Shown in pieces: positions 6,608 to 64,000 of a stretch of DNA of 64,000 bases. The stretch's first letter is position 1, and each line of letters begins with the position of its first letter. The DNA comes from a virus. A model generated the notes under the pieces. That model was not told the DNA's origin. It worked only from the letters and a program-made list of their open reading frames with translations, and did not search any database. Made by a program: the position numbers and the translations under genes. Location: positions 22,355 through 86,354 of the IMG/VR virus record IMGVR_UViG_3300044645_002359. One strand, given 5' to 3'.

Positions 6608-6831
6608 GGTTGGCGGAAGGGGAGAAGTTTACCGGACCTTCGGCGAAGCTAAAATATGGGTGCCCTGAGACGTAAATACGTCGCCCATTATGAGAGGGTT
6701 CCCTGCCGAACTAGCAGGGTAGGACTCGGAGCCTAACATTGCGCTCTTAAACTTCTTGTGCCGTGGGAAAACGCACCTTGAAACAGGTGAGTGACCGTTT
6801 CCTATACGGATGTTGAATTCTATTTTACTGA

Positions 6832-7509: not shown

Positions 7510-7613
7510 TGAACGGTTTCCCGAACTTTACTTGCTCGTCGCAACAAGCTACAATGGTAGCGAGCCTGAGTAATCAGGCACTGAGCCGTGGTTGCCAACC
7601 GCAACAAACACGG

Positions 7614-18088: not shown

Positions 18089-18496
18089 ATGGAACAAAAT
18101 CTGCGCCACTACCTGATCGACTGGCTTAACGAGTGGGGCTACAATGCCCTGGAAGAGTTGGCCGAATTTGACATCCGCGTTGCTCGCGATGAGCGTTACC
18201 CGAACCTCTTCAACCTGAAGTACGGCAGCGTGATGGCGGACAAGTCGCTGCCGATCGTTCGCGCTTGTCGTGGTGCTGTGGTTGAGCGTGTTGATAACGA
18301 TGGCGACCACTCGCCGTACTACCGCCTGGTAGCGTATGCTTTCGATCGTTTCTTCAACGTCGGCGAAGGTTATTGTCACGAACTAGATTGGTCGCATACC
18401 AAGGTTTATGAGAAGTACGATGGTTGCTTACATGCTGAGACTAAGGTAGAAACCTCAAAAGGTACAAACTATCAAAGAGATTTGCGAGAAGCCTGA
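18089..18496 (+). CDS. T4 Rnl1-like RNA ligase N-extein (motif I KYDG) fused to split-intein IntN; IntN is frameshifted and continues in another frame to about 18718
   Basis: DWLNEWGY…IVRACRGAVVERVD…DRFFNVGEG…KVYEKYDG tracks the T4 RnlA N-terminal region. This is followed by C|LHAETKVET (intein block A), and after a shift of one base by …YKITLENGNTIVLTGNHKVWD (block B, close to the gp41-1 IntN YKITLEDGKEIICSEEHLF). Confidence 0.6.
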   Translation: MEQNLRHYLIDWLNEWGYNALEELAEFDIRVARDERYPNLFNLKYGSVMADKSLPIVRACRGAVVERVDNDGDHSPYYRLVAYAFDRFFNVGEGYCHELDWSHTKVYEKYDGCLHAETKVETSKGTNYQRDLREA

Positions 18497-19789: not shown

Positions 19790-20654
19790 AATAGAAAAGA
19801 TAGAAAGTGACTCCCACCTATATGATATACAAACTTTTACCCGTAACTTCTACGCTGAGGGGGTATTGGTACACAATAGCTTAATCAAGCTCTTCAACTA
19901 CAACGGGGACTGGATTGTTTCGACGTCCGGATCGGTGGCAGCAGCTTCGGAAGTTGGTTCCACTGGGCGTTCTTTTGAGGAACTGTTCTGGCTTGTCTTT
20001 GACGAAGTTGGTTATTCTCGGGAATGGCTCGATGAGGGTCTGTGCTATATCTTCGAACTGTGCCACCGCGATAACCGCATCGTTGTGGATTATGCAGAGC
20101 CTCAGTTACCGCTGCTGGCTGTGCGCGACCGTTCCAACGATTTCGAAGAGCTTGAACTTGTTTCGTTCTGCAACCTGTTCGGGTTCAAAGCTGCCAAGTC
20201 GTATGACCTGGGGAGCATGGAAGGCTTGATGGCAGTCGTGAACGATCGTGGCGCCGACCACGAAGGGTTTATCCTGTTTGACGGTGTTGGTCGTGCGAAA
20301 GCAAAGTCCGATGTGTACTGCCAAATGCACCGTGTTCGCGGAAACGGCGATCCGGACTTCTCCGAGCTTTTTCTGAACGACGATTTGGAAGAATTCCTAC
20401 TGCACTTCCCTGAGTACCGTGAGGGCTTCGACGTTCACCTGCGTTCCATCGACATAATGGAAGTTGCTGTGGAAGAGATCATGGGGGTTTACAACCACTT
20501 GAATCAGAAGGACTTTGCTCAAGTTGTAATTGCTAAGGAGAGGGAACTGTCGGGGGCTTGTTTTGCGATTCGCTCCGGTAAAGTTGGCTCCTTCGGTCAG
20601 TGGCTGGAAGGCTTGTCTCCGAAGAAGCTGGATGCCCTGCTGGGTATCAACTGA
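19776..20654 (+). CDS. split-intein IntC (…FYAEGVLVHN|S) fused to the RNA ligase 1 C-extein
   Basis: MKISKIEKIESDSHLYDIQTFTRNFYAEGVLVHNS gives intein blocks F and G with a +1 Ser. The extein SLIKLFNYNGDWIVSTSGS…EGFILFDGVGRAKAKSDVY matches T4 Rnl1 DGSLVST…KSKGS and motifs IV and V EGYVAV…KIKSDWY. Confidence 0.65.
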   Translation: MKISKIEKIESDSHLYDIQTFTRNFYAEGVLVHNSLIKLFNYNGDWIVSTSGSVAAASEVGSTGRSFEELFWLVFDEVGYSREWLDEGLCYIFELCHRDNRIVVDYAEPQLPLLAVRDRSNDFEELELVSFCNLFGFKAAKSYDLGSMEGLMAVVNDRGADHEGFILFDGVGRAKAKSDVYCQMHRVRGNGDPDFSELFLNDDLEEFLLHFPEYREGFDVHLRSIDIMEVAVEEIMGVYNHLNQKDFAQVVIAKERELSGACFAIRSGKVGSFGQWLEGLSPKKLDALLGIN

Positions 20655-28289: not shown

Positions 28290-28562
28290 ATGATCGACAC
28301 CATCCCGCCAACAACATTCGATACTCGAACAGATACCATTAGGTATCCGGACGGCGTTGAAGAAACCTTAGTCCAATACCAAAAACGCAACCGCCAATTT
28401 GAATATATCCGGGGCCTGCAAAATGCTTTAGAAAGAATGAAGGTCCTATATCAGAACCCCGGCTGCCTTACCGAAGGGGAGTATAACGCAGCGAAGGACG
28501 CCATCCAAGGGCAATTTGACTATTGGGAAATGAATCTGTTTATCGAATTCGGAGACAAATGA
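28290..28562 (+). CDS. hypothetical protein (90 aa)
   Basis: ORF. Confidence 0.4.
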   Translation: MIDTIPPTTFDTRTDTIRYPDGVEETLVQYQKRNRQFEYIRGLQNALERMKVLYQNPGCLTEGEYNAAKDAIQGQFDYWEMNLFIEFGDK

Positions 28563-29026
28563 CCATTACCAAATTCTCAGGCCAATTCAGTTTCCTGTCA
28601 AACTTTTATGAGAGCGTTCTAGAATACGAGGGGATCAAATACCCCACAGTCGAACACGCCTTTCAAGCAGCTAAGACTCAGGATCCCGAAGCTCGCCAGC
28701 AAATTGCAAATATGCAAAAGCCGAGCGAGGCCAAAGCTGCGGGAAACCGTAACGGCATTATCAGGGACTTTGACCCCGTAGAGTGGGAACTTAGAAAAAA
28801 CGGAGTCATGGAAGAGTTACTACGCATTAAATTTCAGAACCCAGATCTAAAAAACCTCCTAGCACAAACAGGAAACGCAAAACTAATCGAAGGCAACACT
28901 TGGGGAGACACTTATTGGGGAGTTGATGTTGTGACCGGCGAGGGCGCTAACAAACTTGGTGTCATCCTTGAGGGGATTCGCAACGAGATTGCTGAGGCAA
29001 TGGCAAAGAATAAGCGTCAATCTTGA
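28559..29026 (+). CDS. NADAR-domain protein (YbiA-like)
   Basis: FSGQFSFLSNFYESVLEYEGIKYPTVEHAFQAAK…GNTWGDTYWG matches the NADAR/DUF1768 signature F.G.Y.FLSNF…Y.T.EHAFQA.K. Confidence 0.7.
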   Translation: MTITKFSGQFSFLSNFYESVLEYEGIKYPTVEHAFQAAKTQDPEARQQIANMQKPSEAKAAGNRNGIIRDFDPVEWELRKNGVMEELLRIKFQNPDLKNLLAQTGNAKLIEGNTWGDTYWGVDVVTGEGANKLGVILEGIRNEIAEAMAKNKRQS

Positions 29027-29041: not shown

Positions 29042-29563
29042 ATGACTGCACTCAACAAAACCGAAGGCGACCTATTAGCAATGGCTCGCGAGGGCCAGTT
29101 TGACATAATCGTTCACGGGGCAAACTGCTTCAACAAAATGGCTTCTGGAATTGCCGGGCAAATCAGCCGTGAACACCCTGAGGCTGCTGAAGCCGACCGC
29201 GCCACAGAGTCTGGTGACAGGGGCAAGCTTGGCAACTATACTATGGCTCACGTGCGAGAGATATGGTTGATACAACGTGCCTTCACGATCGTTAACGCTT
29301 ACACTCAGTACACCTATGGGCGAGAAGGAGACTTGTTTGAGTACAACGCCTTTGAAAAGTTTCTGGCAAATTTTGAGACTTTTCTGAGAAAAGTGTACGT
29401 GTTGGCGGGTGCCGACAAGAAAACCAGGGTTGGCTTCCCTTACATCGGTTGTGGCCTTGCAGGTGGAGACGAGCAAAGAATAGTAGAGATGATCGAAAAC
29501 TTCTCTGTGTCTTGCCAAGACATTGCGGATGTCACTCTTGTTAGATTTGTCCGAGATACATGA
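29042..29563 (+). CDS. macro-domain protein (ADP-ribose binding or processing)
   Basis: FDIIVHGANCFNKMASGIAGQI matches the macro-domain core, with a phosphate-binding-loop-like GCGLAGGD. Confidence 0.55.
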   Translation: MTALNKTEGDLLAMAREGQFDIIVHGANCFNKMASGIAGQISREHPEAAEADRATESGDRGKLGNYTMAHVREIWLIQRAFTIVNAYTQYTYGREGDLFEYNAFEKFLANFETFLRKVYVLAGADKKTRVGFPYIGCGLAGGDEQRIVEMIENFSVSCQDIADVTLVRFVRDT

Positions 29564-36048: not shown

Positions 36049-36166
36049 TGGGGAATGGTGCAATGGCAGCACACGTAATTAACGGTTACCTTGGATAAGG
36101 TACAGACAGCAATTACAAAAATTCCATTCCACGGACGTGACGGAGGTTCGATTCCTTCTTCCCCAT
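36049..36166 (+). ncRNA. tRNA-like RNA with a non-canonical insert of about 85 nt (acceptor TGGGGAA/TTCCCCA; D arm GTGC…GCAC; T arm GGAGGttcgattCCTTC)
   Basis: Canonical 7-bp acceptor, D and T arms, but no standard anticodon stem; the insert carries a TACCTTggatAAGGTA hairpin and a CAGACAGCAATTA motif. Confidence 0.4.
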
Positions 36167-37255: not shown

Positions 37256-37373
37256 GGGACCGTAGCTCAACTGGTAGAGCGCTAAATAAAAGTTATCTTG
37301 TACAAGATACGTCAGCAATTAAAAAATACCTCGTTTAAAGGAGTGGTTGCAGGTTCGAGTCCTGCCGGTCCCA
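37256..37373 (+). ncRNA. tRNA-like RNA with a 46-nt insert (acceptor GGGACCG/CGGTCCC; D arm GCTCAACTGGTAGAGC; T arm GCAGGttcgagtCCTGC)
   Basis: Textbook tRNA 5' half and T arm; between them is a palindromic hairpin ATCTTgtacAAGAT plus ACGTCAGCAATTA; no well-paired anticodon stem. Confidence 0.45.
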
Positions 37374-52633: not shown

Positions 52634-52886
52634 GTCAAACGTTCAGGCTGCTTCGGCAGCCCGGAAGTAGGTGACAAAGGAACGCATTCGTTCAGTCTGT
52701 TTACAGGCCGGGATTGTCTCCAAAGGAACGCGCAAAGCAACCCTAGGAGAACACAATGATTAACACTTCAGACAATTCAACCAAAGGTCTCAACCCTCTG
52801 TTTCTTATCAAAAAAAGCCTTATCAAAGAAAGCAAACTCAAAGAAGCACAGCTTGAGATGGCCAAGAAACCCTAAATTCTATAAAA

Positions 52887-54614: not shown

Positions 54615-54759
54615 CTGCCGAGAGTAAACTGGAAACCTTGGACCCCTTAACTCCTTGGTACGAGTTTCTTTCATACTGCGAAGTTTGTCGGAGTCTGGGT
54701 GTGACTCCTTCAGTGGGCCGTTTCACTCGCTATCAAAACTACCTGAAGACAATCAAACA

Positions 54760-55704
54760 ATGACAAACGAACTAACCAGCCCCATGTTAGATAGAGCCAA
54801 AGGCTGCTTAATCGGACTCGCAATCGGCGATGCCTTGGGTGCGCCAGTAGAATTTGGCAGTTACGGGTCTTTTGACCCTGTTGTTGGGTTCAGGGATGGA
54901 GGACCATTCAACCTTAAAGCGGGCCAATGGACCGATGATACTTCTCAGGCTTTGTGCTTGGCCGACTCCATTCTGTCCAACAAAGGGTTTAGCCAAGGCG
55001 ACTTCCTAAACAGGATGATTAATTGGAAGCAGTATGGACACAACAGCAGTACTGGGAAGTGTTTTGACATTGGAATCGGAACGGCCCATGCTCTCCAGTC
55101 TTATAGCAGCACAGGCAAGGTGCCAGTGAATACAAATTCAGGTGGTAACGGAAACATAATGAGGCTCGCACCGGTTGCTATAGCTTTCTTTAGGGATAAC
55201 TACAAAACCCAAGAGATTGCCAGCCTGTCGAGTCTAACTACCCATGGCCACATTTCAGCATTAACTTGCGCGGACTTCCTCAGTGTGATGCTAAGGTCTT
55301 ATATCGTAAGTAGTGATTGCGAAGGGGACATTACATATAACTGTCAAACTAACGAGGAAACTTATGAAATTGACCTGTGTAGTGTGACTCTGGAAAGAAT
55401 AGCGAATGCTGTGACTTCTGAGGAAAGTGAGTGGCATAATGTAAGCGGATTCTCAACCGACACTTTGTGTGCAGCTTTGTATTGTTTCTTCAACACGGAG
55501 TCCTTTGAAGAATGTGTATTGGCTGCGGTAAACCTTGGCGGAGACGCGGATAGCGTAGGCGCCGTAGCTGGACAAATTGCAGGAGCTTACTACGGGCTTT
55601 CCGGTATACCTCAAAGATTCATTGTTGGATTGCAGGACAGCGATAAGTTTCTGAATTTGGCAGAACAATTATTTAACTTGTATCGAAACAAAGATGAAAA
55701 CTAA
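54760..55704 (+). CDS. ADP-ribosylglycohydrolase (ARH/DraG family)
   Basis: LDRAKGCLIGLAIGDALGAPVEF…GQWTDDTSQAL is the ARH signature. Confidence 0.75.
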   Translation: MTNELTSPMLDRAKGCLIGLAIGDALGAPVEFGSYGSFDPVVGFRDGGPFNLKAGQWTDDTSQALCLADSILSNKGFSQGDFLNRMINWKQYGHNSSTGKCFDIGIGTAHALQSYSSTGKVPVNTNSGGNGNIMRLAPVAIAFFRDNYKTQEIASLSSLTTHGHISALTCADFLSVMLRSYIVSSDCEGDITYNCQTNEETYEIDLCSVTLERIANAVTSEESEWHNVSGFSTDTLCAALYCFFNTESFEECVLAAVNLGGDADSVGAVAGQIAGAYYGLSGIPQRFIVGLQDSDKFLNLAEQLFNLYRNKDEN

Positions 55705-56371
55705 AGCGGAAAAGGGCAAATTCATTGCCTTTGAAGGAATAGATGGATGCGGAAAGACAACTCAACTGGCAAGTATCGCCGATTGGCTGTGGTCAAGTGG
55801 ATTACTGCCGGAAGGGACTCACGTTGTAGAAACCAGAGAACCCGGTTGTTTGTCACAAGTTAGAGCCCTACTTAAAGATCCTGACACTACGTTGACTCCG
55901 AGAGCCGAACTCCTATTGTTAATGGCTGATCGAGCCCAACATGTAGAAACTGTAATTAAGCCCGAACTCGAAAGGGGCAATTGGGTACTATGCGATCGGT
56001 TCTACACCAGCACCATGGCATATCAAGGTTGGGGAAGAGCCCTAGGGTGGCAGGCTGTTAAGCAAGCCCACGAACTCGCTTGTGGTTTGTTTTATCCAGA
56101 CTTTGAGATCTACTTCGATGTCCCTGCTGATGAAGCTGCTTTGAGGATTGAAAGGAGGAATAAGCAACTGAGACGGGAGCATGGAAGGAACTTTGAGGTT
56201 AAAGACCGTTTTGAGGCACAGGGGTCCTCATTTATGAACAGGGTAATTGAGGGGTTCGATAATGCGATTAAGCTCCCTTTCCTTAAAGAGTACTCTCACG
56301 TTACGATCGACGGGTGTCGCAAACCTGAAGAGGTTACTGCCGAGTGCATTGAGAAAATTTCGAGGCTATGA
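55694..56371 (+). CDS. tmk: thymidylate kinase
   Basis: FIAFEGIDGCGKTTQ P-loop and DRF…S motif. Confidence 0.75.
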   Translation: MKTKAEKGKFIAFEGIDGCGKTTQLASIADWLWSSGLLPEGTHVVETREPGCLSQVRALLKDPDTTLTPRAELLLLMADRAQHVETVIKPELERGNWVLCDRFYTSTMAYQGWGRALGWQAVKQAHELACGLFYPDFEIYFDVPADEAALRIERRNKQLRREHGRNFEVKDRFEAQGSSFMNRVIEGFDNAIKLPFLKEYSHVTIDGCRKPEEVTAECIEKISRL

Positions 56372-56730
56372 AACCTTTTCTACATGGGCGAAAACACGCC
56401 AAGAAGTACGGTGGGTCACCAGATGATTATGCCGACATCGACGACTTCATTGACAGCAGCAAGATCGCGTTTCCCGACATACGCCACCGTGCTTTATTGC
56501 ATTCTTCTTTCGGCTGTTTCGTCGTCGAGCAAATGTTCGGACGCACTCGTGTAAACTCTGCGGGGTTTACTTACTCTCCGCGAGACATTGCCGAAGACCA
56601 TATAATTCAAGACCTAGGGTTTATCCCCACAGTCGAGAAATACTTGAACAACATGGAAATTCAGCCGTGGATGTCAGGTACCAACAAATCACCAAACAAA
56701 CAAAACAAATTCATTCCGATCGGAGACTAA
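56368..56730 (+). CDS. hypothetical protein (120 aa)
   Basis: ATGA overlap. Confidence 0.4.
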   Translation: MKPFLHGRKHAKKYGGSPDDYADIDDFIDSSKIAFPDIRHRALLHSSFGCFVVEQMFGRTRVNSAGFTYSPRDIAEDHIIQDLGFIPTVEKYLNNMEIQPWMSGTNKSPNKQNKFIPIGD

Positions 56731-56733
56731 ACC

Positions 56734-57210
56734 ATGTCACAATCCCTTGACTCTCTCATTCAAGACTTCATCTCTTACCAAGAGCAATTCGGGAAGGTAG
56801 CTACGGAAAAACTCAAAGAATTCTTCGTAGAATTCTGGGAAAAGAACCCTGCCATCAAAGCCGTAACTTGGAATCAATACGCACCTTACTTCAACGACGG
56901 AGATCCTTGTGAGTTTAGTGTAAATGACCCTTACTTCACGAACGCTGAAGGAGAAGACCTTGAGGAAATCACCCGGTGGGGTGAATACGAAGGGGAAAAA
57001 GAGGATATCTGGTCCGAGTACTCGTTCTCAGGTCGATACGGTGCTGTCGCACCTGAAGGAGTAGACCCCGTCTCAACAGACTCTCTTTCGACTCTTTTGA
57101 CCTCTGAGGTGATGGAATCAATCATGAAGACAACCTTCGGGTCAGACAACACCGTAATTGCAACACGAGAAGGGTTTCAGGTGGAGGACTTTTCGGGAGG
57201 GCATGACTGA
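56734..57210 (+). CDS. hypothetical acidic protein (158 aa)
   Basis: ORF. Confidence 0.4.
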   Translation: MSQSLDSLIQDFISYQEQFGKVATEKLKEFFVEFWEKNPAIKAVTWNQYAPYFNDGDPCEFSVNDPYFTNAEGEDLEEITRWGEYEGEKEDIWSEYSFSGRYGAVAPEGVDPVSTDSLSTLLTSEVMESIMKTTFGSDNTVIATREGFQVEDFSGGHD

Positions 57211-57237
57211 ACTTTCCAAGAGATAGGTTAAAAAAAA

Positions 57238-57303
57238 GGGGGGTTAACCGAACCGAAACGGTCGGTCTCCGCCCTTGTTTTCGCTCCGAGAAAACGCTAT
57301 AGT
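57238..57303 (+). promoter_or_regulatory. hairpin-promoter cassette copy 19
   Basis: GGGGGGTTAACCGAACCGaaacGGTCGGTCTCCGCCC; -35 TTGTTT; spacer TCGCTCCGAGAAAA; -10 TATAGT; ATG at 57310. Confidence 0.55.
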
Positions 57304-57309
57304 AAGAGC

Positions 57310-57915
57310 ATGGAACTCAAGTCTACCCTCTCCTCCTCGTTCTTCCGTCGGTTCTGCCCCGACCCCACCGTGATGTATGATCTTGGCGATCTCCACGCTG
57401 AGTTAAACGCTCGCTTCTTCAACGGTGAACTGCCTGTCCTTCCTTCCGACACTTACTCCGACAAGAACGGCGAGACTCGCACTCGCTTCGGCACCCTAAA
57501 GTGGGATGGCCGCATGGGACAGCGCACTCTGGGCACCTACAAGGCTTCGGCTCGCCGTGGACACGGAACCATCCGCCTGGCCCGCTCGATCGCCTCGGAC
57601 CCTGTGAAGACCCGCAGCGTTCTTCTGCACGAGATGCTCCACAAGTACCTTGACTTCAAAGGTATGGACGACGGTATTCTCGGACACGGCGAGAATTTCG
57701 TCACCGAAGCGAAACGCATCAATGAAAGCTGTCAAGCCGCTGGAGTTGACTACCGTATTCACTTCTACGATGAAGAAGTTACCAAGGACGAACCCTTCGT
57801 GATTTCCGAACTTGCTAAGAAAGAGATCTACTGCGGTAAAGACCTCGATGTAGCTCGCAACATGCAGGCTATTATGAGGGCAGCGTTCGACCAAAAGTTC
57901 GAATACTTCCAGTGA
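57310..57915 (+). CDS. HExxH zinc-metallopeptidase-like protein (SprT/Wss1-like)
   Basis: LLHEMLHKYLD motif in a 201-aa protein. Confidence 0.4.
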   Translation: MELKSTLSSSFFRRFCPDPTVMYDLGDLHAELNARFFNGELPVLPSDTYSDKNGETRTRFGTLKWDGRMGQRTLGTYKASARRGHGTIRLARSIASDPVKTRSVLLHEMLHKYLDFKGMDDGILGHGENFVTEAKRINESCQAAGVDYRIHFYDEEVTKDEPFVISELAKKEIYCGKDLDVARNMQAIMRAAFDQKFEYFQ

Positions 57916-57954
57916 GACCTTCGGGTCTCTTTTTATTTCACCTTGAGACAGTAA

Positions 57955-58317
57955 ATGAAACCTACACAAGAACAATTAAACGAATGGGCAGAGTGCTACT
58001 TTTCGTCTGGCGCCGGCATGTCTACTATTCGAGAAACCATTATGCCAAACTTAGTTCAAAATGTTGTAGAGTGGGCCACCGAAGAGATTGCACAGGTGTT
58101 CGATAGAAAAGAACAAGCAGGAGCGAAAGGTTACGGACCGAGTGTGCCAGCTAAGATAGTACGAGAGTTAGGAGCCCCTGCTGGGTTAACCCTGAAAGAA
58201 ATGTCTCTTCGTGCTCTTGAGGACTTGGTCCCCTTGGACCAAAGAAGAGGGAATTCTTACAAACTACTTGAAACAGTTCTGTCGAACATTCCTGAATCAC
58301 CAACCAACATCAGGTGA
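57955..58317 (+). CDS. hypothetical protein (120 aa)
   Basis: ORF. Confidence 0.4.
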   Translation: MKPTQEQLNEWAECYFSSGAGMSTIRETIMPNLVQNVVEWATEEIAQVFDRKEQAGAKGYGPSVPAKIVRELGAPAGLTLKEMSLRALEDLVPLDQRRGNSYKLLETVLSNIPESPTNIR

Positions 58318-58371
58318 AAGGGTGGGTAAATCTACTCTAGTTGGACACTGTTATACCAACCTACATACGAA

Positions 58372-59859
58372 ATGACTATGGCAATAGAAAGTACAAAGCA
58401 AGCCGCTGCGGCAGTCTGCGATAAAAATACCAAATGCGACAATAGCTGCTCCGTTGGTGAAACCGTTGTCTGTGACTTACGCTCTCGCTCTGCCCCACGC
58501 AGAATTGACCTCGATACACTTTACAAGTGCGACCCGAAAGATTACATCGGTTACTTCGCTGACGATTCCTCCTACGACAATCTTATTCAAGAAGACTGCG
58601 ACGTTTACGTTGCCGGTGTCAAAGTTGTCGCTTTTCGTAAGTCCCTGTTCCCAAAACTGAAGGAAGGTTCCAAGGGCGACCCAAAGACTTGGGAATACTT
58701 CCGCTGGGCAGCCCGCGATCTGTATTCTGACCAGCGCGGTCTGGTTGCCGGTCGGGAACTTACAACCGATCTCGAAATCAGAGTAACTAATGGTATTCTA
58801 AACTTCTTCAAAAAAGCCATTGCTGGGCAAGTCACAGAAGTTGAAGAGGCTCTTAAAATTGTTGCTCTTTCTCCAGATCATGGTAAGCTTACAGTAAGAA
58901 TCACCGAAGTCAAGAAAGACTATCCGGAAATTGCCAAAGCTCTTGAGCCCATCGAAGCCGAACTTCGTAAGAAAACGACGAGCGAAGAAAGAAAAGTAGA
59001 GCTGAAGAAAGCAAAGGGAGAAGAACTTGCGAAGTGGTTCCCGACCTGGTTGACACGAACTTGGGCTAAGGCTGAAAACAAAGTAGAGGCAGCTAAGCTA
59101 GGGGACGACAGGTATATCAGCAAGCAGCTGCGTTCAAACAAGTGCTATTCTAACGTTCTTGGTGCCTTCGATAGAGGGGCAAGAAATCCTTACGGTCGCT
59201 TAACCGCTACTACTCTTAAAAACTACGACGGTTTCGTGAGTCATACAGACATCTACCAAACCGCTTGTGCCGCTCTGAAAGAAACCCTAAACACACAAGA
59301 AAACCCCCGTTGGGATCGTCTTCACGACCGCTTCGGTAACGTGAAAGATCCACATTATAACCTTTTCGGTACGGTATTTACCGCCCTCACCTTAAACTGG
59401 AATTTCCGCTGTGCTATGCACTATGACGGGAACAATTGCGAAGGCGGTATTGCCGTTCTTACCGCAATGACTCAAGGCGAGTACGAAGGTCATTACCTTG
59501 TATTCCCAGAAATCCGGTGCGCCTTTGATCTTCGTGACGGGGACTTTATTGCAGGTGACAACCAGGGTTTGATTCATGGCAACACCGCTATGATTCCAAA
59601 GACTCCTGATGCGGAAAGAGTATCCTTCGTTTTCTATTCTCGCGAGCGTATGACCTTGCTTGATGACATGGAGTGCGAGGACTGCCGCCGCGATTTCATG
59701 AAATACGCAGCTGAGAACTACACTCAGTACGGTAAAGGTCACAAAACCTGGAATGGTGTGTGGCAGGGAATGTGGAAGTCTTCGGAATGGATGGACTTCA
59801 AAGAACTTAACGGTGCGGAGCGTTGCTCAAACACCAACTACTGGGGAACTGAAAATTAA
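58372..59859 (+). CDS. two-domain protein: unknown N-domain plus 2OG-Fe(II) dioxygenase-like double-stranded beta-helix (DSBH) domain (HxD…H…RxS); fused version of 60571 plus 61062
   Basis: MHYDGNN…LIHGN…RVSFVFYSRE facial triad with a 2OG-binding Arg-x-Ser; paralogous over its full length to the two following split ORFs. Confidence 0.5.
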   Translation: MTMAIESTKQAAAAVCDKNTKCDNSCSVGETVVCDLRSRSAPRRIDLDTLYKCDPKDYIGYFADDSSYDNLIQEDCDVYVAGVKVVAFRKSLFPKLKEGSKGDPKTWEYFRWAARDLYSDQRGLVAGRELTTDLEIRVTNGILNFFKKAIAGQVTEVEEALKIVALSPDHGKLTVRITEVKKDYPEIAKALEPIEAELRKKTTSEERKVELKKAKGEELAKWFPTWLTRTWAKAENKVEAAKLGDDRYISKQLRSNKCYSNVLGAFDRGARNPYGRLTATTLKNYDGFVSHTDIYQTACAALKETLNTQENPRWDRLHDRFGNVKDPHYNLFGTVFTALTLNWNFRCAMHYDGNNCEGGIAVLTAMTQGEYEGHYLVFPEIRCAFDLRDGDFIAGDNQGLIHGNTAMIPKTPDAERVSFVFYSRERMTLLDDMECEDCRRDFMKYAAENYTQYGKGHKTWNGVWQGMWKSSEWMDFKELNGAERCSNTNYWGTEN

Positions 59860-59883
59860 CCCTTAGGTCGGTTACCGGAGCGG

Positions 59884-59922
59884 AGTAGATTCAAATTTAC
59901 TCTGCTTTTATCCAGCTATATT
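59884..59922 (+). terminator. rho-independent terminator (GGAGTAGAttcaaattTACTCTGC plus TTTTAT)
   Basis: Stem-loop followed by a T-tract. Confidence 0.5.
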
Positions 59923-59947
59923 AGAACTGAAGTTTACCAAGAGAGAA

Positions 59948-60172
59948 ATGACAAACTTTGACGACCTCTTTGAAGCAGTAGAATCTTCTTCATACGACTT
60001 GTCCAGAAACCTGGACACCATACGTTATGAAATTGAAGGTCTCACTAGGGAATATGAGGAACTACTTAATCTGTTGCAAGTTTCTGACCATCAGTCAGCG
60101 GTAGAAGCAATTATTTCTCTTAAGTCTAAACGAGATCTTACTGCACCTCGGAGAGGATCGGAAACGCTTTAA
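59948..60172 (+). CDS. hypothetical protein (74 aa)
   Basis: ORF. Confidence 0.4.
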   Translation: MTNFDDLFEAVESSSYDLSRNLDTIRYEIEGLTREYEELLNLLQVSDHQSAVEAIISLKSKRDLTAPRRGSETL

Positions 60173-60262
60173 CGAAGTCCATATCAAAAGCTAATAACAC
60201 TTATAGAGACCTTGTGGATTTGAGCTAACTCTCTTTAATTTCACCACTATACGACAACAAAC

Positions 60263-60574
60263 ATGACGACTGAACCGCAAGCCGAAAGTGAAGAACAATC
60301 CTCTCAGGAAACTTTACAAACAACTGTTACTATCAATCTACCCCCAGATTTTGCAGAGGCTTTCAACTCTCTGGCAGAACGCGAAGGACTATCTCAAGAT
60401 GCGCTGGTTATGCGCTCTCTTGGCCTTTACTCCGTAGCATCGCAAGCTGAGAAGGGGGGTTACGCTTTGTCTTTCACCCGGATTGAAGGAACCAACGACC
60501 TGACTGCCAAGGAAGCTATTCGCATCGAAGACGAGCCAGAATCTAACTTGTTTATTCCAGGCAAGAGGCAATGA
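60263..60574 (+). CDS. hypothetical protein (103 aa)
   Basis: ORF. Confidence 0.4.
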   Translation: MTTEPQAESEEQSSQETLQTTVTINLPPDFAEAFNSLAEREGLSQDALVMRSLGLYSVASQAEKGGYALSFTRIEGTNDLTAKEAIRIEDEPESNLFIPGKRQ

Positions 60575-61065
60575 TTCGAGTAGCAATAGCGAAAGAATTG
60601 CAGTCTAGAGCTGAACCATTGCGGATCGATAGGGGAACCCTTGAAAACTGCCCTCGCAGTGAATACATTGGACAATTCCCCAAGACAACAGATTATGACA
60701 CTGTCATAGACAAAGACTGTGACGTTTACGTCTCAGGTGTGAAAGTCTTGTCCTTCCGAAAAGCTCTCTTTCCAATTCTTTCCGAGGGTTCTTCCAAACA
60801 GAAAGAAACTTGGGACTTTTTCCGAGCAGCTTCAAAAGAAGTTTATGGCACCCAAAGAGGTGTCGTTGCGGGCACAGAGTTTACAACTCGTCCCGAGTCA
60901 CGCTTAACTAAAGGCCAGGTTGCTTTCTTCGCCGGTGCTTCAGTGGGTTTGATTACAACGCTTCCTCAAGCGCGAGAGGCTCTGGAAAGTTCCAACGAAC
61001 TCACTAGCAAGACTCTCAAGATCAAGTATATAAAGAAAGACTACCCAGAACTTGCGGAAAAATGA
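60571..61065 (+). CDS. N-domain paralog (split copy) of the 58372 protein
   Basis: RIDRGTLENCPRSEYIGQFP…DCDVYVSGVKVLSFRKALFP parallels RIDLDTLYKCDPKDYIGYFA…DCDVYVAGVKVVAFRKSLFP. Confidence 0.5.
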   Translation: MIRVAIAKELQSRAEPLRIDRGTLENCPRSEYIGQFPKTTDYDTVIDKDCDVYVSGVKVLSFRKALFPILSEGSSKQKETWDFFRAASKEVYGTQRGVVAGTEFTTRPESRLTKGQVAFFAGASVGLITTLPQAREALESSNELTSKTLKIKYIKKDYPELAEK

Positions 61066-62057
61066 AGCCCTTGGAGGCAGAAATTCGCACACTGAGCCCC
61101 GAAGACCCGAAACTAGAAAGTCTGAGAAACCAGAGAAGGGAACTACTTTGGTGTTGGTTTGAACCTTGGTTACTGGAAGTTTGGTTGCCCTCTGAAAACA
61201 AAGTAGAAGAAGTCAAAAAAGTTTTAAACACTTACATTAGCTCTCAGTTAAATTTCAACCATTGCTACAGTAACGTCCTGGGGGCAATTGACCGTGGGGC
61301 AAGATTCCCCTATGGTCGTTTGAGCGGAACCACTCAGAGATACTATGAGCAGTTCTCTAAATACAGAGACATTTATTACGCGGCCTGCGAAGGTTTCAGG
61401 TACAATTTTCCGGAGACCTGGAGCAAAGTTAAAGAAGTAATTTCGAAGGCTAAAGACCCTAACTACAACTTGTTCGGCACTGCCTTTACGAGCGTAACTC
61501 TAAACTTCAATTTTAAGACTGCCTACCACGTTGACAAGAACAACTTGAAAGGGGGGCTGGCTGTCTTGACTGCGTTCACAAAGGGAGACTATGAGGGCCA
61601 CTACTTAGTGTTCCCCGAAGTTAAGCTAGCTTTCAACTTGAGAGACGGGGACTTTATCGTAGGAGACACTCAAGTCCTACTTCACGGGAACAGCCCCATG
61701 ACAAAACTCACTGAGGATGCTGAGCGGGTTTCTCTGGTTTTCTACTCTCGAGAGAATATGACCCGATTGGACGATCTTGATTGTGAAGAATGCCGAAAAC
61801 AATTCATGAAGTTTTCACTTCAGTCCCTGAAGGAACGGGGCAAAGATCACAAAGACTGGAGGGGCGTGTGGCAAGGAATGTGGACTTCTCAGGAGTGGTT
61901 AGACTTTCGAAAAGAAAGAAACTTGGAACACTGTTCAAACTCCAACTGGCAGCTTTCTTCGCCTTACGAGAATGAAGTTACGAAAGAGATGAAGCTGTTT
62001 AAGGACGATCCAGGTGAGGGATGGAAACTCGTACAAGTATTTACACAAGGTCGGTAA
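61062..62057 (+). CDS. 2OG-Fe(II) dioxygenase-like (HxD…H…RxS) paralog, ATGA-coupled to 60571
   Basis: AYHVDKNN…LLHGN…[10 protein letters not shown]; about 55% identical to the C-half of 58372. Confidence 0.5.
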
Positions 62058-62113
62058 CCGCCCGGAAGCCTTCGGCTTCCTCCCTTGTTTCTGATCCACA
62101 TAAACGCTATGAT
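62049..62113 (+). promoter_or_regulatory. hairpin-promoter cassette copy 20
   Basis: GGTCGGTAACCGCCCGGAAGCCttcGGCTTCC; -35 TTGTTT; spacer CTGATCCACATAAA; -10 TATGAT; ATG at 62120. Confidence 0.55.
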
Positions 62114-62119
62114 TGTTGT

Positions 62120-62704
62120 ATGGAAATCTACTTTAGCACAGACGTTGAAACTGACGGGCCGATTCCCGGCCCCAACAGCATGCTCTCCCTAGGGTCAGCT
62201 GCGTTCTCCTCTTCAGGAAAGCTGCTGGCTACCTTCTCGGTGAACCTGGAGACCCTCCCCGGAGCCGAGCCGGACCCCTCTACCCAAGCGTGGTGGGAGG
62301 CCCACCCAGAGGCTTACAGAGCCTCCAGAGAAGGGACCCTGGCCCCGGACCAAGCCATGCTTGCCTTTTCACAGTGGGTCACTGCTACGGTCAGCTCGTA
62401 CACTCAAGCGACTGTTAGAAAAGTTTCTCCAGTATTCGTCGGGTTCCCTGCAGGTTTTGACTTCCTCTTCGTGTATTGGTACCTTATTAAATTCACAGGG
62501 CAATCCCCGTTCAGCTTCTCCGCACTTGACGGTAAGACCTATGCCATGGCACTTCTTAAGAAAGGCTACCGGCAATCTACAAAAAAGAACTATCCGAAGG
62601 AATGGTTCCCCCCGACTGACAAACACACTCACATTGCTGTGGAAGATGCCATCGAGCAGGGTCGTATTTTCTGTAAGATGCTGGCCGCAAATGGACAATC
62701 TTGA
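62120..62704 (+). CDS. DEDDh (DnaQ-like) 3'-5' exonuclease
   Basis: [11 protein letters not shown] (Exo I) … [10 protein letters not shown] (Exo III, H-x4-D). Confidence 0.5.
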
Positions 62705-63038
62705 AATTTACAACCGTAAGCATAAGCTCGTGCTAGAACTGAGAGAACTAGGCGAAGAAGAAGCTGAAGATAGCCTGTTGGAGGAGTTGGACGATCTCTG
62801 GCATAAGATGAATGAATCAGACCGTCATAAGGCCCAAGCTTTCACCTATACTTTGCTTTACGGATCCTCCTTACCCCCTACAATCTCCCATTCAGAAAAG
62901 ATGAGAGAGTACTCTGGAAAAGTTAATGCATCTTTTAAGGCGCTACTGGAAGGGGATATCGAAACTAGTGATACTCTCCTAAAGGAAGTCAGATCGCTAT
63001 GGGAAGAATTAATCTCAGATGATTTCCCAGAAGAATGA
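62691..63038 (+). CDS. hypothetical protein (115 aa)
   Basis: ORF from the ATG; overlaps the upstream gene by 14 nt. Confidence 0.35.
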
Positions 63039-63112
63039 TTGAGATCCTAGCTGCATTCATAGCCTTCGGCTTGTTCATGTTTGTATTATCTGTCCTTTAA
63101 CTCTCAACCTTA

Positions 63113-63877
63113 ATGAAAGACCCACTCTTCCTTCTCCAAGCCGGAGGCCCGCTACCCACCGAGAAAATTGCCTGCAGCTTTTCGTGTTATCCAGTGAAGT
63201 ATTGTCCTTTTTCGGATATCAAGAAGTTAGACCCCAAGGAATCCTTAACTCAACTTGTCCCAGTAGGTTCCGTAGAGTTTGTTAAAGCTTATAGTGAGCA
63301 CGTGAGCATCGAGCTTCCCAGGGACTTTTCTTATGGCATTTGCGACGGTCAACTTGACCAGTTCCTGATGAGATCTATGCGAAAGGGGACTTACGGTGAG
63401 GCAACCCTTATTGATTTTGTCAAACCCATTGAGATAAAGTTTTTCACAGGAAATGTAAAAGGGCATCTTGAAATGGAGGCACCGGGGCTCATTCCGAATG
63501 ATACTCCAGTCTGGGTTACCGAAGCCGTACCCTTCGGAGCCGAATTTCGCTTCTATATTCACGACTTCATTGGTGGTGGTAAAATCCAAGGTTGGTCTCG
63601 ATACGATGATTCAAACATGCAATGTTCAGAGCCTGACTTTGGCCTGGTTGAAGCCGTAATGAAAGAGTTGGAGTACGGGGGTGCTCCAGGTGCCTATACA
63701 ATTGACATTGGGTGGAGGCCTGATTTAGAACGCTATTGCTTAGTTGAACTCAATGATGCATGGGCATTAGGATTATACGAAAATGCAGACCCTCAATCTA
63801 ATCCACCTACCCGACAGCAGTACGCCGATATGTTGGTCTCTCGCTGGAGACAAATTCTTTTCTGCAGTTTAGTATAA
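63113..63877 (+). CDS. ATP-grasp fold protein
   Basis: EFRFYIHDFIGGG…YTIDIGW…LVELNDAWALGLY matches ATP-grasp C-terminal motifs. Confidence 0.5.
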   Translation: MKDPLFLLQAGGPLPTEKIACSFSCYPVKYCPFSDIKKLDPKESLTQLVPVGSVEFVKAYSEHVSIELPRDFSYGICDGQLDQFLMRSMRKGTYGEATLIDFVKPIEIKFFTGNVKGHLEMEAPGLIPNDTPVWVTEAVPFGAEFRFYIHDFIGGGKIQGWSRYDDSNMQCSEPDFGLVEAVMKELEYGGAPGAYTIDIGWRPDLERYCLVELNDAWALGLYENADPQSNPPTRQQYADMLVSRWRQILFCSLV

Positions 63878-64000
63878 TGTGTGCTTTATTCGGATGTGAC
63901 CTAGAAGAAGTCACGCAAAACAACATCCAAACAATACAACGCATTGCTCTTGAATCACAGGTCAGAGGCAAACATGCTACTGGCATCTCCTACATTGGAA
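63877..64000 (+). CDS. class-II (Ntn) glutamine amidotransferase domain, asparagine-synthetase-like (partial; runs off the window)
   Basis: The MCALFGC N-terminus carries the catalytic Cys2 and an RGKHATGIS motif. Confidence 0.45.
   Translation, partial: MCALFGCDLEEVTQNNIQTIQRIALESQVRGKHATGISYIG

What the first reader, a model, noticed from the sequence alone, without database searches (positions are those of the whole stretch)
55694..64000. Candidate DNA base-hypermodification block: tmk, duplicated two-domain 2OG-Fe(II) dioxygenases, ATP-grasp and amidotransferase
A fused protein (58372) and a split copy of the same protein (60571 plus 61062, ATGA-coupled) each combine an unknown N-domain of about 165 aa with a DSBH oxygenase domain. 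The oxygenase domain carries HxD…H and a downstream RxS, which are the Fe(II) and 2-oxoglutarate ligands. They are followed by a DEDDh exonuclease, an ATP-grasp ligase and an Ntn glutamine amidotransferase, and preceded by thymidylate kinase and an HExxH protein. Phage TET/JBP-like dioxygenases that oxidise thymine or cytosine in DNA are commonly linked to kinases, ATP-grasp or amino-acid-ligating enzymes and glycosyltransferases. A GT-A-like gene sits at 44567. Together these generate hypermodified bases that block restriction. Fused and split versions of one two-domain gene sitting side by side is itself an unusual evolutionary snapshot.
Basis: inference. Interest (0 to 1): 0.65.

Follow-up and report, generated by a model that had tools for sequence, protein, structure and literature searches.

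The report
Phage thymine-hypermodification cluster, front half
This stretch of a cyanophage genome encodes two TET/JBP-type DNA dioxygenases and the first genes of a cassette that relatives use to decorate thymine in phage DNA; this kind of system has been noticed before, but its chemical product is unknown.

Summary
Both oxygenases belong to the TET/JBP family: they pass Pfam's cut-off, and all 26 best structural matches are DNA-acting TET/JBP enzymes. H350, D352, H402 and R424 are invariant in 53 homologues.

The window ends 41 codons into the amidotransferase. Four related contigs continue with amidoligase, amino-acid:DNA transferase (AADT) and the 5-hydroxymethyluracil DNA kinase family. 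Among 78 distant viral loci, 40 carry AADT, 39 the amidotransferase and 33 the kinase. None has a cytosine-5 methyltransferase motif. The best reading is therefore post-replicative thymine oxidation to 5hmU, followed by amino-acid-based hypermodification.

- tmk is an ordinary dTMP kinase.
- tmk, the exonuclease and the GT2 gene are not conserved partners. The SprT-like gene travels with the locus only within this lineage and two more distant loci.
- The R2K ATP-grasp occurs only in this lineage.
- The two oxygenases are old paralogues (49% identity).
- The "split" is a private one-base deletion. The nearest relative has an intact 495-aa gene, and both halves remain under purifying selection.

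The roughly 155-aa N-domain has no detectable fold relative. No ParB activator gene is present. This is a new variant of a known, chemically uncharacterised kind.

The parts
58372..59859 (+). TET-A: a two-domain TET/JBP dioxygenase of 495 aa. It has an orphan N-domain (about residues 35-190), a DSBH catalytic domain (about 200-430) and a C-terminal extension (about 430-495).
   Evidence: Pfam PF12851 scores 51.6 bits, above the 34.9 cut-off. The AF2 model has pLDDT 93.3 and pTM 0.86. The best Foldseek PDB matches are CcTet, CMD1, NgTET1 and TET2, down to E=2.6e-10. H350, D352, H402 and R424 are invariant in 53 homologues. dN/dS against L004 is 0.039.
60263..60574 (+). Small protein of 103 aa that weakly resembles a ribbon-helix-helix fold. 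Its stop overlaps the start of TET-B (ATGA). It may be a regulator.
   Evidence: RHH_1 E=0.012, below the cut-off. Orthologues sit in the same position in L004, and small ORFs of 93-110 aa occupy that position in L002, L006 and L007. dN/dS against L004 is 0.099.
60571..61065 (+). TET-B, N-terminal piece (164 aa): the orphan N-domain of the second paralogue, ended by a TGA that a 1-base deletion created.
   Evidence: 46% identical to TET-A residues 35-189 and 94% identical to the intact 495-aa orthologue P0030. dN/dS against L007 is 0.177.
61057..61065 (+). Frameshift site GAAAAATGA. One base is missing relative to L007 (GAGAAAATG) and L004 (GAAAGAATG). A -1 shift on the A5 run would restore ...[13 protein letters not shown]..., which is identical to L007.
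   Evidence: DNA alignments. The repaired translation gives 495 aa with no internal stop.
61062..62057 (+). TET-B, C-terminal piece (331 aa): the complete TET/JBP catalytic domain plus the C-terminal extension.
   Evidence: Pfam PF12851 scores 67.9 bits. It is 53% identical to TET-A residues 191-490. HVD, the distal HGN and RVS..YSR are retained. dN/dS is 0.035 against L007 and 0.037 against L004.
63113..63877 (+). R2K-clade ATP-grasp ligase (254 aa). It is a lineage-specific insertion between the oxygenases and the amidotransferase, and its stop overlaps the amidotransferase start (TAATG).
   Evidence: R2K_3 79.3 bits and R2K_2 67.3 bits. It lies directly downstream of the TET gene(s), or separated from them only by the exonuclease and one to three small ORFs, in L002-L006, L010, L011, L012 and L018. 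It is found in 0 of 78 distant loci.
63877..64000 (+). 5' end (41 codons) of a class-II (N-terminal Cys) glutamine amidotransferase. This is the first gene of the conserved GATase-amidoligase-AADT-kinase cassette, which runs off the window.
   Evidence: It matches the amidotransferase profile at E=8.5e-21 and is 40/41 identical to the L004 GATase_6 protein (35.5 bits against a cut-off of 27). In distant loci the amidotransferase start abuts or overlaps the TET stop.
55694..56371 (+). dTMP kinase. It is a neighbour and not a conserved member of the cassette. It probably supports dTTP supply.
   Evidence: TIGR00041 equivalog scores 133.3 bits against a cut-off of 83.25. No Tmk gene is called in the 10 kb upstream of the TET genes in L005, L010 or L011.
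57310..57915 (+). SprT-like Zn-metalloprotease-fold protein. It is a syntenic neighbour within the lineage, and its role in the pathway is unproven.
   Evidence: Pfam SprT-like scores 38.1 bits. It lies upstream of the TET gene in L001-L006, L010-L012, L014, L015 and L018, and in none of the loci with about 30% TET identity.
62120..62704 (+). DEDD-type exonuclease, Rv2179c-like. It is a lineage-specific neighbour.
   Evidence: Pfam scores 26.9 bits against a cut-off of 27, E=4.7e-6. It is 97% identical to the L004 196-aa protein, which starts MEIYFSTD. No such gene is called in L005 or L011, and none was found in the 78 distant loci. In L010 the profile hit falls on no called gene.

Best explanation
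The window comes from a cyanophage related to Synechococcus phage S-CBWM1. Positions 58372-64000 are the 5' half of a post-replicative thymidine-hypermodification gene cluster.

**Proposed pathway**
1. [quoted passage not shown] They are predicted to hydroxylate thymine in newly replicated phage DNA to 5-hydroxymethyluracil (5hmU). Family membership is shown; the substrate is inferred.
2. By analogy with the characterised M6, ViI and PaMx11 pathways, a P-loop 5hmU DNA kinase phosphorylates the hydroxyl. An amino-acid:DNA transferase (AADT) then displaces the phosphate with an amino acid.
3. Both of those genes, with one or two amidoligases, lie just beyond the window's 3' end in every sufficiently long relative. 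Their presence in this genome is inferred.
4. The Ntn glutamine amidotransferase, whose first 41 codons are in the window, is inferred to work with the glutamine-synthetase-like amidoligase. Together they would amidate or extend the carboxylate of the DNA-linked amino acid, with ATP activation and glutamine-derived ammonia.
5. The R2K ATP-grasp is translationally coupled to the amidotransferase. It may add a further amino acid or amine, but it is lineage-specific and its participation is the weakest link.

**Expected product.** An amidated or peptidyl aminoacyl-thymidine that shields phage DNA from nucleases.

**The split in TET-B.** It is a recent one-base deletion, or a base-calling error. 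It is not a stable gene architecture.
For: **Family**
- Pfam Tet_JBP is above the gathering score for both copies.
- A profile of 53 homologues hits human TET2 best in the PDB, E=2e-5, aligning HxD, the distal H and R-x-S-L-V-F-Y.
- Foldseek hits 1-26 are all TET/JBP DNA dioxygenases; FTO and AlkB follow.
- The Fe/2OG residues are invariant.

**Context in the lineage**
- L004 (TET-A 92% identical, same gene order as the window) continues: R2K, GATase_6, two Amidoligase_2-like genes, LMW phosphatase, ADDT PF18724 (65.4 bits), Ploopntkinase3 PF18751 (48.1 bits).
- The same cassette is in L005, L010 and L011.

**Context beyond the lineage**
- Of 78 IMG/VR loci with TET identity of about 30-40%, 40 have AADT, 33 the kinase, 39 the amidotransferase and 25 an amidoligase. 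These are lower bounds, because many contigs are truncated.
- The usual order is TET>GATase>amidoligase>AADT>kinase, with adjoining or overlapping gene ends in most.
- AADT and the alternative partner TAGT never co-occur: 0 of 78.

**Substrate**
- No C5-methyltransferase motif is found in any of the 91 loci searched or in the last 20 kb of the window.
- Pfam scans of about 55 window ORFs gave no methyltransferase hit.

**Literature**
- AADT and 5-HMUDK act on 5hmU in DNA. TET_JBP contigs carrying amidoligase and glutaminotransferase genes of unknown function were already noted (PMC8989533).
- Phage clade C1 5mYOX enzymes linked to GATase, P-loop kinase and AADT genes are T-dioxygenases (PMC13229309).

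**Selection**
- dN/dS is 0.04-0.08 for both paralogues.
Against: - The window itself contains no AADT, kinase, amidoligase or TAGT gene. Their presence downstream is inferred only from relatives.
- No biochemical data exist for this oxygenase subfamily. O'Toole et al. report that some clade C1 enzymes without ParB showed no activity on T or 5mC in E. coli.
- Their active C1 enzymes needed a ParB partner, and no ParB-like gene is detectable in the window or its lineage.
- Only 64 kb of a probably larger genome (139 kb in S-CBWM1) was searched for a C5-methyltransferase.
- R2K ATP-grasps were predicted by their discoverers to modify proteins (PMC4431377).
- R2K also accompanies the TAGT (glycosylation) version of the locus in L002, L003 and L018. 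That argues against a role specific to amino-acid chemistry.
Confidence: 0.68

Rival explanations
1. The oxygenases are 5-methylcytosine dioxygenases, like phage TET clades A/B. They would make 5hmC from 5mC installed by a methyltransferase encoded elsewhere in the phage or by the host.
For: The best solved structural neighbours (CcTet, NgTET1, TET2) are 5mC enzymes. Single-TET relatives carry the TET-associated glycosyltransferase TAGT, and that family is also used on 5hmC. Only 64 kb of the genome was examined.
Against: No C5-MTase motif or Pfam hit was found in the window or in 91 related loci. The conserved partners AADT and Ploopntkinase3 are characterised on 5hmU (PMC8989533). Only about 6% of phage 5mYOX pathways co-occur with a C5-MT (PMC13229309). 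No solved JBP-type T-dioxygenase appeared among the 50 matches listed, which biases the fold neighbours towards 5mC enzymes.
Confidence: 0.1
2. Only the oxygenases and the amidotransferase cassette modify DNA. The R2K ATP-grasp is an unrelated host-takeover enzyme that ligates amino acids to proteins. Like tmk, the SprT-like gene and the exonuclease, it merely sits in a syntenic early-gene region.
For: R2K is absent from all 78 distant cassettes. It is present next to both AADT-type and TAGT-type loci. Burroughs et al. predicted protein targets and noted linkage of R2K genes with ADP-ribosylglycohydrolase (PMC4431377). The window encodes an ADP-ribosylglycohydrolase at 54655-55704.
Against: The R2K stop overlaps the amidotransferase start in the window, L004 and L010. 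It always lies between the TET gene(s) and the downstream modification genes in this lineage.
Confidence: 0.35
3. The split of TET-B is not biological. It is a one-base sequencing or assembly error, and the real gene is an intact 495-aa paralogue.
For: A single missing base relative to two relatives. The repaired reading frame is 495 aa, and across the junction it is identical to L007. There is no sign of relaxed selection: dN/dS is 0.083 overall and 0.035 for the catalytic half.
Against: The missing base is a G flanked by A's, not a simple homopolymer-length change. The deletion creates a perfect ATGA stop-start overlap with an in-frame ATG. A close relative, L004, also carries an independent lesion (an in-frame TGA) in the same paralogue, and TET-B is missing altogether in L002, L003 and S-CBWM1. 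Loss or damage of this copy therefore does occur in nature.
Confidence: 0.35
4. The oxygenases act on RNA (tRNA or mRNA) or on a small molecule. They would belong with the RNA-repair genes of the region: two RNA ligases, a PNKP phosphatase and an Rv2179c-like exoribonuclease.
For: The surrounding window is rich in RNA-repair genes. The exonuclease family is named for an exoribonuclease.
Against: The tight operonic linkage with DNA-specific AADT and 5hmU DNA kinase genes in dozens of unrelated phage contigs. The fold neighbours are DNA enzymes.
Confidence: 0.04

Closest known systems
Phage clade C1 5-methylpyrimidine dioxygenases (5mYOX; T-dioxygenases such as 5mYOX176), O'Toole et al. PNAS 2026 (PMC13229309)
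   Same: TET/JBP catalytic domain. No neighbouring C5-methyltransferase. Linkage with amidotransferase, P-loop kinase and AADT genes. A C-terminal extension beyond the DSBH. Distant members of the present subfamily (about 30% identity) carry a ParB/Noc-like gene inside the cassette and an AAA ATPase nearby, as that paper describes.
   Different: No ParB-like gene in the window or in any locus of its lineage. A conserved orphan N-domain of about 155 aa precedes the catalytic domain. Two or three paralogous oxygenases occur per genome. An R2K ATP-grasp is inserted.
Thymidine hypermodification pathways of phages M6, ViI, PaMx11, SP10 and PhiW-14 (5-HMUDK plus AADT/aGPT-Pplase2), Lee et al. 2018 and 2021 (PMC5889632, PMC8989533)
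   Same: The same kinase (Ploopntkinase3) and transferase (ADDT, PF18724) families occur in orthologous loci. The logic is the same: 5hmU, then 5-phosphomethyl-U, then aminoacyl-T, then tailoring. Lee et al. 2021 already listed metavirome contigs combining these genes with TET_JBP, amidoligase and glutaminotransferase genes.
   Different: Here 5hmU is predicted to be made on the polymer by a dioxygenase rather than from a dUMP hydroxymethylase nucleotide pool. The tailoring enzymes are an amidotransferase, amidoligase(s) and an ATP-grasp, instead of PLP decarboxylase, radical-SAM, FAD or acetyltransferase enzymes. The product is unknown.
Phage TET clades A/B with a C5-methyltransferase and glycosyltransferases, Burke et al. 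2021 (PMC8256090)
   Same: The same superfamily, and post-replicative oxidation that starts a hypermodification. Single-TET relatives of this phage, including S-CBWM1, carry the TET-associated glycosyltransferase TAGT.
   Different: No C5-methyltransferase. The window's lineage pairs the enzymes with AADT-type rather than glycosyl-type chemistry. The protein is about 200 aa longer.
Trypanosomatid JBP1/2 and base J
   Same: Thymine in DNA is oxidised to 5hmU and then further derivatised.
   Different: JBPs carry a J-DNA-binding or SWI2/SNF2 domain and are followed by glucosylation. There is no homology outside the DSBH. The database label 'SNF2 DNA repair protein' on the phage homologues is unfounded: no SNF2 domain was found.

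Membership tests
TET/JBP 2OG-Fe(II) dioxygenases (PF12851; 5mYOX superfamily) | Match to the family model above the curated threshold | tested here: met
   51.6 bits (TET-A) and 67.9 bits (TET-B C-piece) against a gathering score of 34.9.
TET/JBP 2OG-Fe(II) dioxygenases (PF12851; 5mYOX superfamily) | DSBH fold whose nearest solved relatives are TET/JBP enzymes rather than other 2OG oxygenases | tested here: met
   The AF2 model has pLDDT 93.3. Foldseek PDB ranks 1-26 are CcTet, CMD1, NgTET1 and TET2 (E from 2.6e-10 to 1e-5), followed by FTO and AlkBH.
TET/JBP 2OG-Fe(II) dioxygenases (PF12851; 5mYOX superfamily) | HxD...H iron triad and a 2OG-binding arginine on the last strand | tested here: met
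   H350, D352, H402 and R424 are invariant in 53 sequences. R416, which aligns with TET2 R1896, is kept in 38 of 53 and is present in both window copies.
TET/JBP 2OG-Fe(II) dioxygenases (PF12851; 5mYOX superfamily) | Oxidation of the C5-methyl of T or 5mC in DNA | not testable with these tools
   Needs an enzyme assay or nucleoside LC-MS.
ParB-dependent clade C1 T-dioxygenases (O'Toole 2026) | Co-localised ParB-like activator gene | tested here: not met
   A profile built from the ParB/Noc-like genes of 10 distant cassettes finds nothing in the window or the lineage loci at E<0.01. No ParB Pfam hit was found among about 55 window ORFs.
ParB-dependent clade C1 T-dioxygenases (O'Toole 2026) | Linkage with amidotransferase, P-loop kinase and AADT genes | tested here: inconclusive
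   Only the amidotransferase start is in the window. All three genes are present in the orthologous loci L004, L005, L010 and L011 and in about half of 78 distant loci.
ParB-dependent clade C1 T-dioxygenases (O'Toole 2026) | Phylogenetic placement within clade C1, and homology of the C-terminal extension | not testable with these tools
   The sequences of 5mYOX176, 5mYOX97 and others are not held. A conserved extension of about 70 aa exists (E436, C438, R439, G462, W473).
5-HMUDK/AADT thymidine hypermodification pathway (Lee 2018, 2021) | 5hmU DNA kinase (Ploopntkinase3) and amino-acid:DNA transferase (ADDT, PF18724) genes | tested here: inconclusive
   Absent from the 64-kb window. Both are above the Pfam cut-offs in L004, whose gene order and 40/41-identical amidotransferase start match the window's end.
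Phage 5mC-TET clades A/B (Burke 2021) | Adjacent DNA cytosine-5 methyltransferase | tested here: not met
   No ORF with PCQxFS and ENV motifs in 91 related loci or in the last 20 kb of the window. No methyltransferase Pfam hit in the window.
R2K clade ATP-grasp (PF14243, PF18299) | Match above the curated threshold | tested here: met
   79.3 bits against 26.3, and 67.3 bits against 26.2.
Class-II (Ntn) glutamine amidotransferase | N-terminal catalytic Cys after Met1, and a GATase_6/7 domain | tested here: met
   The window ORF starts MCALFG. Its 40/41-identical L004 orthologue scores 35.5 bits on GATase_6 against a cut-off of 27. Only 41 codons lie in the window.
dTMP kinase (TIGR00041 equivalog) | Equivalog model above the trusted cut-off | tested here: met
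   133.3 bits against 83.25.

The most novel reading that the evidence does not exclude
The N-domain-bearing oxygenases of this cyanophage lineage may be a self-sufficient subclass of thymine dioxygenases. The orphan N-domain of about 155 aa packs its invariant QRGxVAG loop against the catalytic domain. In this reading it supplies the DNA-engagement or activation function that ParB provides in trans for other clade C1 enzymes. Paralogues A, B and C would differ in sequence context or in downstream pathway: A with TAGT glycosylation, B and C with the AADT cassette. The amidotransferase, amidoligase(s) and R2K ATP-grasp would then build an amidated or peptidyl aminoacyl-thymidine not yet seen in any DNA.
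Probability: 0.25. Interest if true: 0.7.

Novelty: new variant of a known kind. Interest (0 to 1): 0.5.

Why it matters
Post-replicative thymine hypermodification that starts from a TET/JBP dioxygenase has only just been shown experimentally. The amidotransferase/amidoligase branch of it has no known product.

This lineage offers a tractable entry point:
- It has a cultured relative, S-CBWM1, which carries the glycosyl version of the locus.
- Natural genomes carry one, two or three paralogous oxygenases.
- It has a variant without the ParB activator.
- It has an extra ATP-grasp ligase.

Finding the product would add a new DNA base chemistry. Comparing the paralogues could show how sequence or substrate specificity is set. 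Such enzymes are also of practical interest for enzymatic DNA labelling and for sequencing of modified bases.

The work also corrects a misleading label. 'SNF2 DNA repair protein' has spread across phage genomes for what are in fact TET/JBP homologues.

Tried and rejected
- **N-domain as an independent mobile module.** A phmmer search of 1.8 billion representatives gave 13 hits. Seven are TET fusions of 439-498 aa. The other six are 111-312 aa, and whether they are complete genes or fragments was not checked. No fusion to any other domain was seen.
- **Split as a conserved architecture.** Rejected.
- **TGA recoding or a suppressor tRNA to explain the TGA interruptions.** Rejected. tmk itself ends in a TGA that overlaps the next start. 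The window's tRNAs that ARAGORN calls are Arg-TCT, Ile-TAT and Ser-CGA.
- **Pseudogene decay of TET-B.** Not supported by dN/dS.
- **tmk as the pathway kinase.** Rejected.
- **Other cassette genes elsewhere in the window.** Searches for AADT, kinase, amidoligase, TAGT and GT1 found none.
- **Megablast of the block against GenBank phages.** No match.
- **Published 5mYOX sequences for clade placement.** Not available in the held supplements.
- **afdb50 fold library.** Unavailable.
- **Promoter and terminator scan.** Counts were not above the shuffled expectation. Only two well-placed hairpins are worth noting.
- **T4-like phages DLP_6 and Cr30.** Their annotated contexts were uninformative.

Full report
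**1. Observation**

- Pfam assigns 55694-56371 to thymidylate kinase, 56368-56730 to DUF6915 and 57310-57915 to the SprT-like family.
- The 495-aa protein (58372-59859) and the 331-aa protein (61062-62057) match Tet_JBP (PF12851), both above the gathering score.
- The 62021-62704 ORF is a borderline Rv2179c-like exonuclease.
- The 63113-63877 ORF is an R2K-clade ATP-grasp.
- The 164-aa and 331-aa ORFs align end-to-end with residues 35-189 and 191-490 of the 495-aa protein, at 46% and 53% identity.
- The last ORF starts MCALFG at 63877 and overlaps the ATP-grasp stop (TAATG). It runs off the window after 41 codons.

**2. The oxygenases**

I call the fused gene TET-A and the split one TET-B.
- A profile of 53 homologues finds human TET2 as its best solved relative (E=2e-5). 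The alignment covers the HxD motif, the distal His and the R-x-S-L-V-F-Y strand.
- An AlphaFold2 model of TET-A is confident (pLDDT 93.3, pTM 0.86).
- Its 26 best Foldseek matches in the PDB are all TET/JBP DNA dioxygenases: CcTet, CMD1, NgTET1 and TET2. FTO and AlkB homologues come only after them.
- H350, D352, H402 and R424 are invariant.

That criterion is not met.

**3. The N-domain**

- Residues of about 35-190 carry invariant G60, R122, G123 and G127 (motif QRGxVAG) across homologues down to 26% identity.
- The domain has no Pfam match.
- A search of 1.8 billion representative proteins returned 13 hits. Seven are full-length TET fusions. The other six are 111-312 aa, and I did not check whether they are complete genes or fragments.
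- The conserved loop is poorly predicted in the isolated domain (pLDDT below 50) but confident in the full-length model (94-97). This suggests it packs against the catalytic domain; that is inference.
- The architecture is not rare. At least 548 IMG/VR stretches encode relatives, and most align from residue 52 to about 480.
- GenBank phages (S-CBWM1, DLP_6, Cr30, HTVC112P) label their homologues 'SNF2 DNA repair protein'. No SNF2 domain is present.

**4. What the block belongs to**

The nearest cultured relative is Synechococcus phage S-CBWM1, at 57.6% identity for TET-A.

Metagenomic contigs of the same lineage keep the window's gene order (SprT-like, small ORF, TET-A, small ORFs, TET-B, and so on) and continue past the point where the window stops.
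- L004 (TET-A 92% identical) continues: exonuclease, R2K, GATase_6, two Amidoligase_2-like genes, an LMW phosphatase on the opposite strand, ADDT (amino-acid:DNA transferase, PF18724, 65.4 bits) and Ploopntkinase3 (the 5hmU DNA kinase family, 48.1 bits).
- L005, L010 and L011 show the same cassette.
- The window's 41 amidotransferase codons are 40/41 identical to L004's.

To see whether this is more than synteny among close kin, I fetched 80 IMG/VR loci and searched them with profiles of each cassette gene.
- Among the 78 loci outside the lineage (TET identity about 30-40%), 40 have AADT, 33 the kinase, 39 the amidotransferase and 25 an amidoligase.
- The usual order is TET>GATase>amidoligase>AADT>kinase, with adjoining or overlapping gene ends in most.
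- Eight loci instead carry the TET-associated glycosyltransferase TAGT. No locus has both AADT and TAGT.
- None has an R2K ATP-grasp.
- No ORF in any locus has C5-methyltransferase motifs.
- Many contigs are truncated, so these counts are lower bounds.

**5. Mechanism**

- AADT and 5-HMUDK have been shown to act on 5hmU in DNA. The kinase gives 5-phosphomethyl-dU, and the transferase replaces the phosphate with glycine, serine or putrescine (PMC8989533).
- That paper already noted metavirome contigs in which TET_JBP replaces the dUMP hydroxymethylase, and in which amidoligase and glutaminotransferase genes of unknown function accompany the core enzymes.
- O'Toole et al. (PMC13229309) showed that phage clade C1 and C2 5mYOX enzymes are post-replicative T-dioxygenases. 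They also showed that the ParB-dependent subset of clade C1 is linked to GATase, P-loop kinase and AADT genes.

The best-supported reading has four steps:
1. T is oxidised to 5hmU by TET-A and/or TET-B.
2. 5hmU is phosphorylated.
3. An amino acid is transferred onto the base.
4. The amidotransferase and amidoligase amidate or extend the carboxylate.

Family membership of each enzyme is shown. The substrate (T), the presence of the downstream genes in this particular genome and the chemistry of the tailoring steps are inferred.

**6. What does not belong**

- tmk passes the dTMP-kinase equivalog model, and no Tmk is called upstream of the TET genes in L005, L010 or L011. It is nucleotide metabolism, not the base kinase.
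- No exonuclease gene is called in L005 or L011, and none of the 78 distant loci has one.
- The SprT-like gene accompanies the TET gene in the lineage and in L014 and L015, but not in the loci with about 30% identity.
- The GT2 gene at 44567 is a real GT-A-fold family member. It lies about 13 kb upstream beside tRNA genes and has no conserved link to the block.
- The R2K ATP-grasp is translationally coupled to the amidotransferase in the window, L004 and L010. However, it also sits next to the TAGT-type loci (L002, L003, L018), it is absent outside the lineage, and its discoverers predicted protein targets (PMC4431377). Its membership is open.

**7. The 'fused plus split' pair**

TET-A and TET-B are 49% identical, and each has its own orthologues. 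A third type, C, occurs in L010, L014 and L016. They are therefore old paralogues, not a fresh duplication.
- Type A alone goes with TAGT (L002, L003, S-CBWM1).
- Type B or C sits next to the AADT cassette.
- L018 has A, B and TAGT.

The split itself is a one-base deletion.
- The window reads GCGGA-AAAATGAAG, where L007 has GCGGAGAAAATGAAG and L004 has GCGGAAAGAATGAAG.
- L007 (TET-A 98% identical) has an intact 495-aa TET-B. The orthologue cluster P0030 (495 aa, 30 member sequences) is 94% identical to the window's N-piece.
- Re-reading one A of the A5 run gives ...[13 protein letters not shown]..., which is identical to L007.
- dN/dS between the window and L007 is 0.083 for TET-B (N-piece 0.177, C-piece 0.035) against 0.057 for TET-A. 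Against L004, the C-piece is 0.037 and TET-A is 0.039. There is no sign of decay.
- L004 carries an independent in-frame TGA in the same paralogue, and some relatives lack TET-B entirely. This copy can therefore be lost.

I cannot tell a base-calling error from a very recent real frameshift. If it is real, ATGA coupling would yield a free N-domain plus a catalytic protein of 331 aa. Rare -1 slippage on A-AAA-A before the TGA could yield some full-length enzyme; that is speculation.

**8. Relation to ParB**

- Ten distant cassettes carry a gene of about 340-450 aa between the amidoligase and AADT genes (in two loci upstream of TET).
- Its profile hits only ParB/Noc N-terminal domains in the PDB, and weakly (E=0.0025-0.6). 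Pfam ParB_N gives E=0.005.
- An AAA_5 ATPase is also common nearby.
- This matches the published description of the ParB-dependent subclass.
- No homologue of that gene is found in the window or its lineage.

The window's enzymes thus look like ParB-less relatives of clade C1. O'Toole et al. say some ParB-less C1 enzymes were inactive in their assays, which is a caveat on the predicted activity.

**9. Verdict**

This is the front half of a thymidine, not cytosine, hypermodification cluster of a kind already recognised in metaviromes but not yet characterised chemically.

The lineage-specific features make it a new variant rather than a new kind:
- an orphan N-domain,
- two or three paralogous dioxygenases,
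- no ParB gene,
- an inserted R2K ATP-grasp.

The 'evolutionary snapshot' is a private one-base lesion.

Noticed in passing
window 2103-2287 (+): Permuted tmRNA gene. Rfam RF04321 scores 73 bits against a gathering score of 47. ARAGORN also calls a permuted tmRNA at 2069-2378 with tag peptide ANKIVKFERTAVAV.
   Followed up: no
window 11086-12075 and 12114-13616 (+): Adjacent ribose-phosphate-pyrophosphokinase-like and NAMPT/NAPRTase-like genes. This is an NAD+ salvage or reconstitution pair of the kind phages use against NAD-depleting defences. An HNH endonuclease gene follows at 13717-14307.
   Followed up: no
window 18089-18496 (+), 18689-19789 (-), 19776-20654 (+): The T4 Rnl1-type RNA ligase appears 'fractured'. 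The N-part matches profile positions 2-57. The C-part matches positions 106-208 and begins with an intein C-terminal splicing motif (E=0.003). An endonuclease-like ORF (DUF7487/DUF559) lies between them on the opposite strand. This may be a split-intein arrangement.
   Followed up: partly
window 28523-29026, 29042-29563, 54655-55704 (+): Three ADP-ribose-processing genes: NADAR (92 bits), a weak macro-domain hit, and an ADP-ribosylglycohydrolase (235 bits) immediately upstream of tmk. R2K ATP-grasps have been reported linked to ADP-ribosylglycohydrolases in Firmicutes (PMC4431377).
   Followed up: no
window 52638-52688 (+): Glutamine riboswitch aptamer (glnA RNA; Rfam RF01739, 41.3 bits against a gathering score of 35) upstream of small ORFs. 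It lies about 11 kb upstream of the glutamine amidotransferase.
   Followed up: no
window 36049-36166 and 37256-37373 (+): Two tRNA-model hits of 118 nt (41.5 and 50.1 bits) that ARAGORN did not call. They may be intron-containing or otherwise unusual tRNA genes.
   Followed up: no
L001 (S-CBWM1 NC_048106) 3729-7921: In the cultured phage S-CBWM1, the gene annotated 'SNF2 DNA repair protein' is a TET/JBP homologue. It is followed by a TAGT glycosyltransferase (40.6 bits), a phosphoheptose isomerase and a sugar-1-phosphate nucleotidyltransferase. This predicts a glycosylated, possibly heptosylated, hydroxymethyl base in an available isolate.
   Followed up: partly
L004 3529-3531 (window equivalent 60835-60837): The close relative L004 has an in-frame TGA in TET-B where the window has AAA (Lys). 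Third-position-only differences continue downstream of that stop. The lesion is therefore recent, an error, or read through.
   Followed up: partly
L029, L030, L032, L033, L035, L042, L047, L060, L066, L087: Distant cassettes carry a ParB/Noc-like gene of about 340-450 aa in which GNHT replaces the GERR motif. In eight loci it lies between the amidoligase and AADT genes; in L033 and L035 it lies upstream of TET. An AAA_5 (MoxR/CbbQ-like) ATPase gene lies upstream in four of these loci (19 loci overall) and a GNAT gene occurs in 13 loci.
   Followed up: partly
window 57914-57929 and 62064-62080 (+): Two GC-rich hairpins with TTCG-type loops followed by T-runs sit exactly after the SprT-like and TET-B stop codons. 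They suggest three transcription units: tmk to SprT, TET-A to TET-B, and the exonuclease onwards. Overall terminator counts are not above the shuffled expectation.
   Followed up: no
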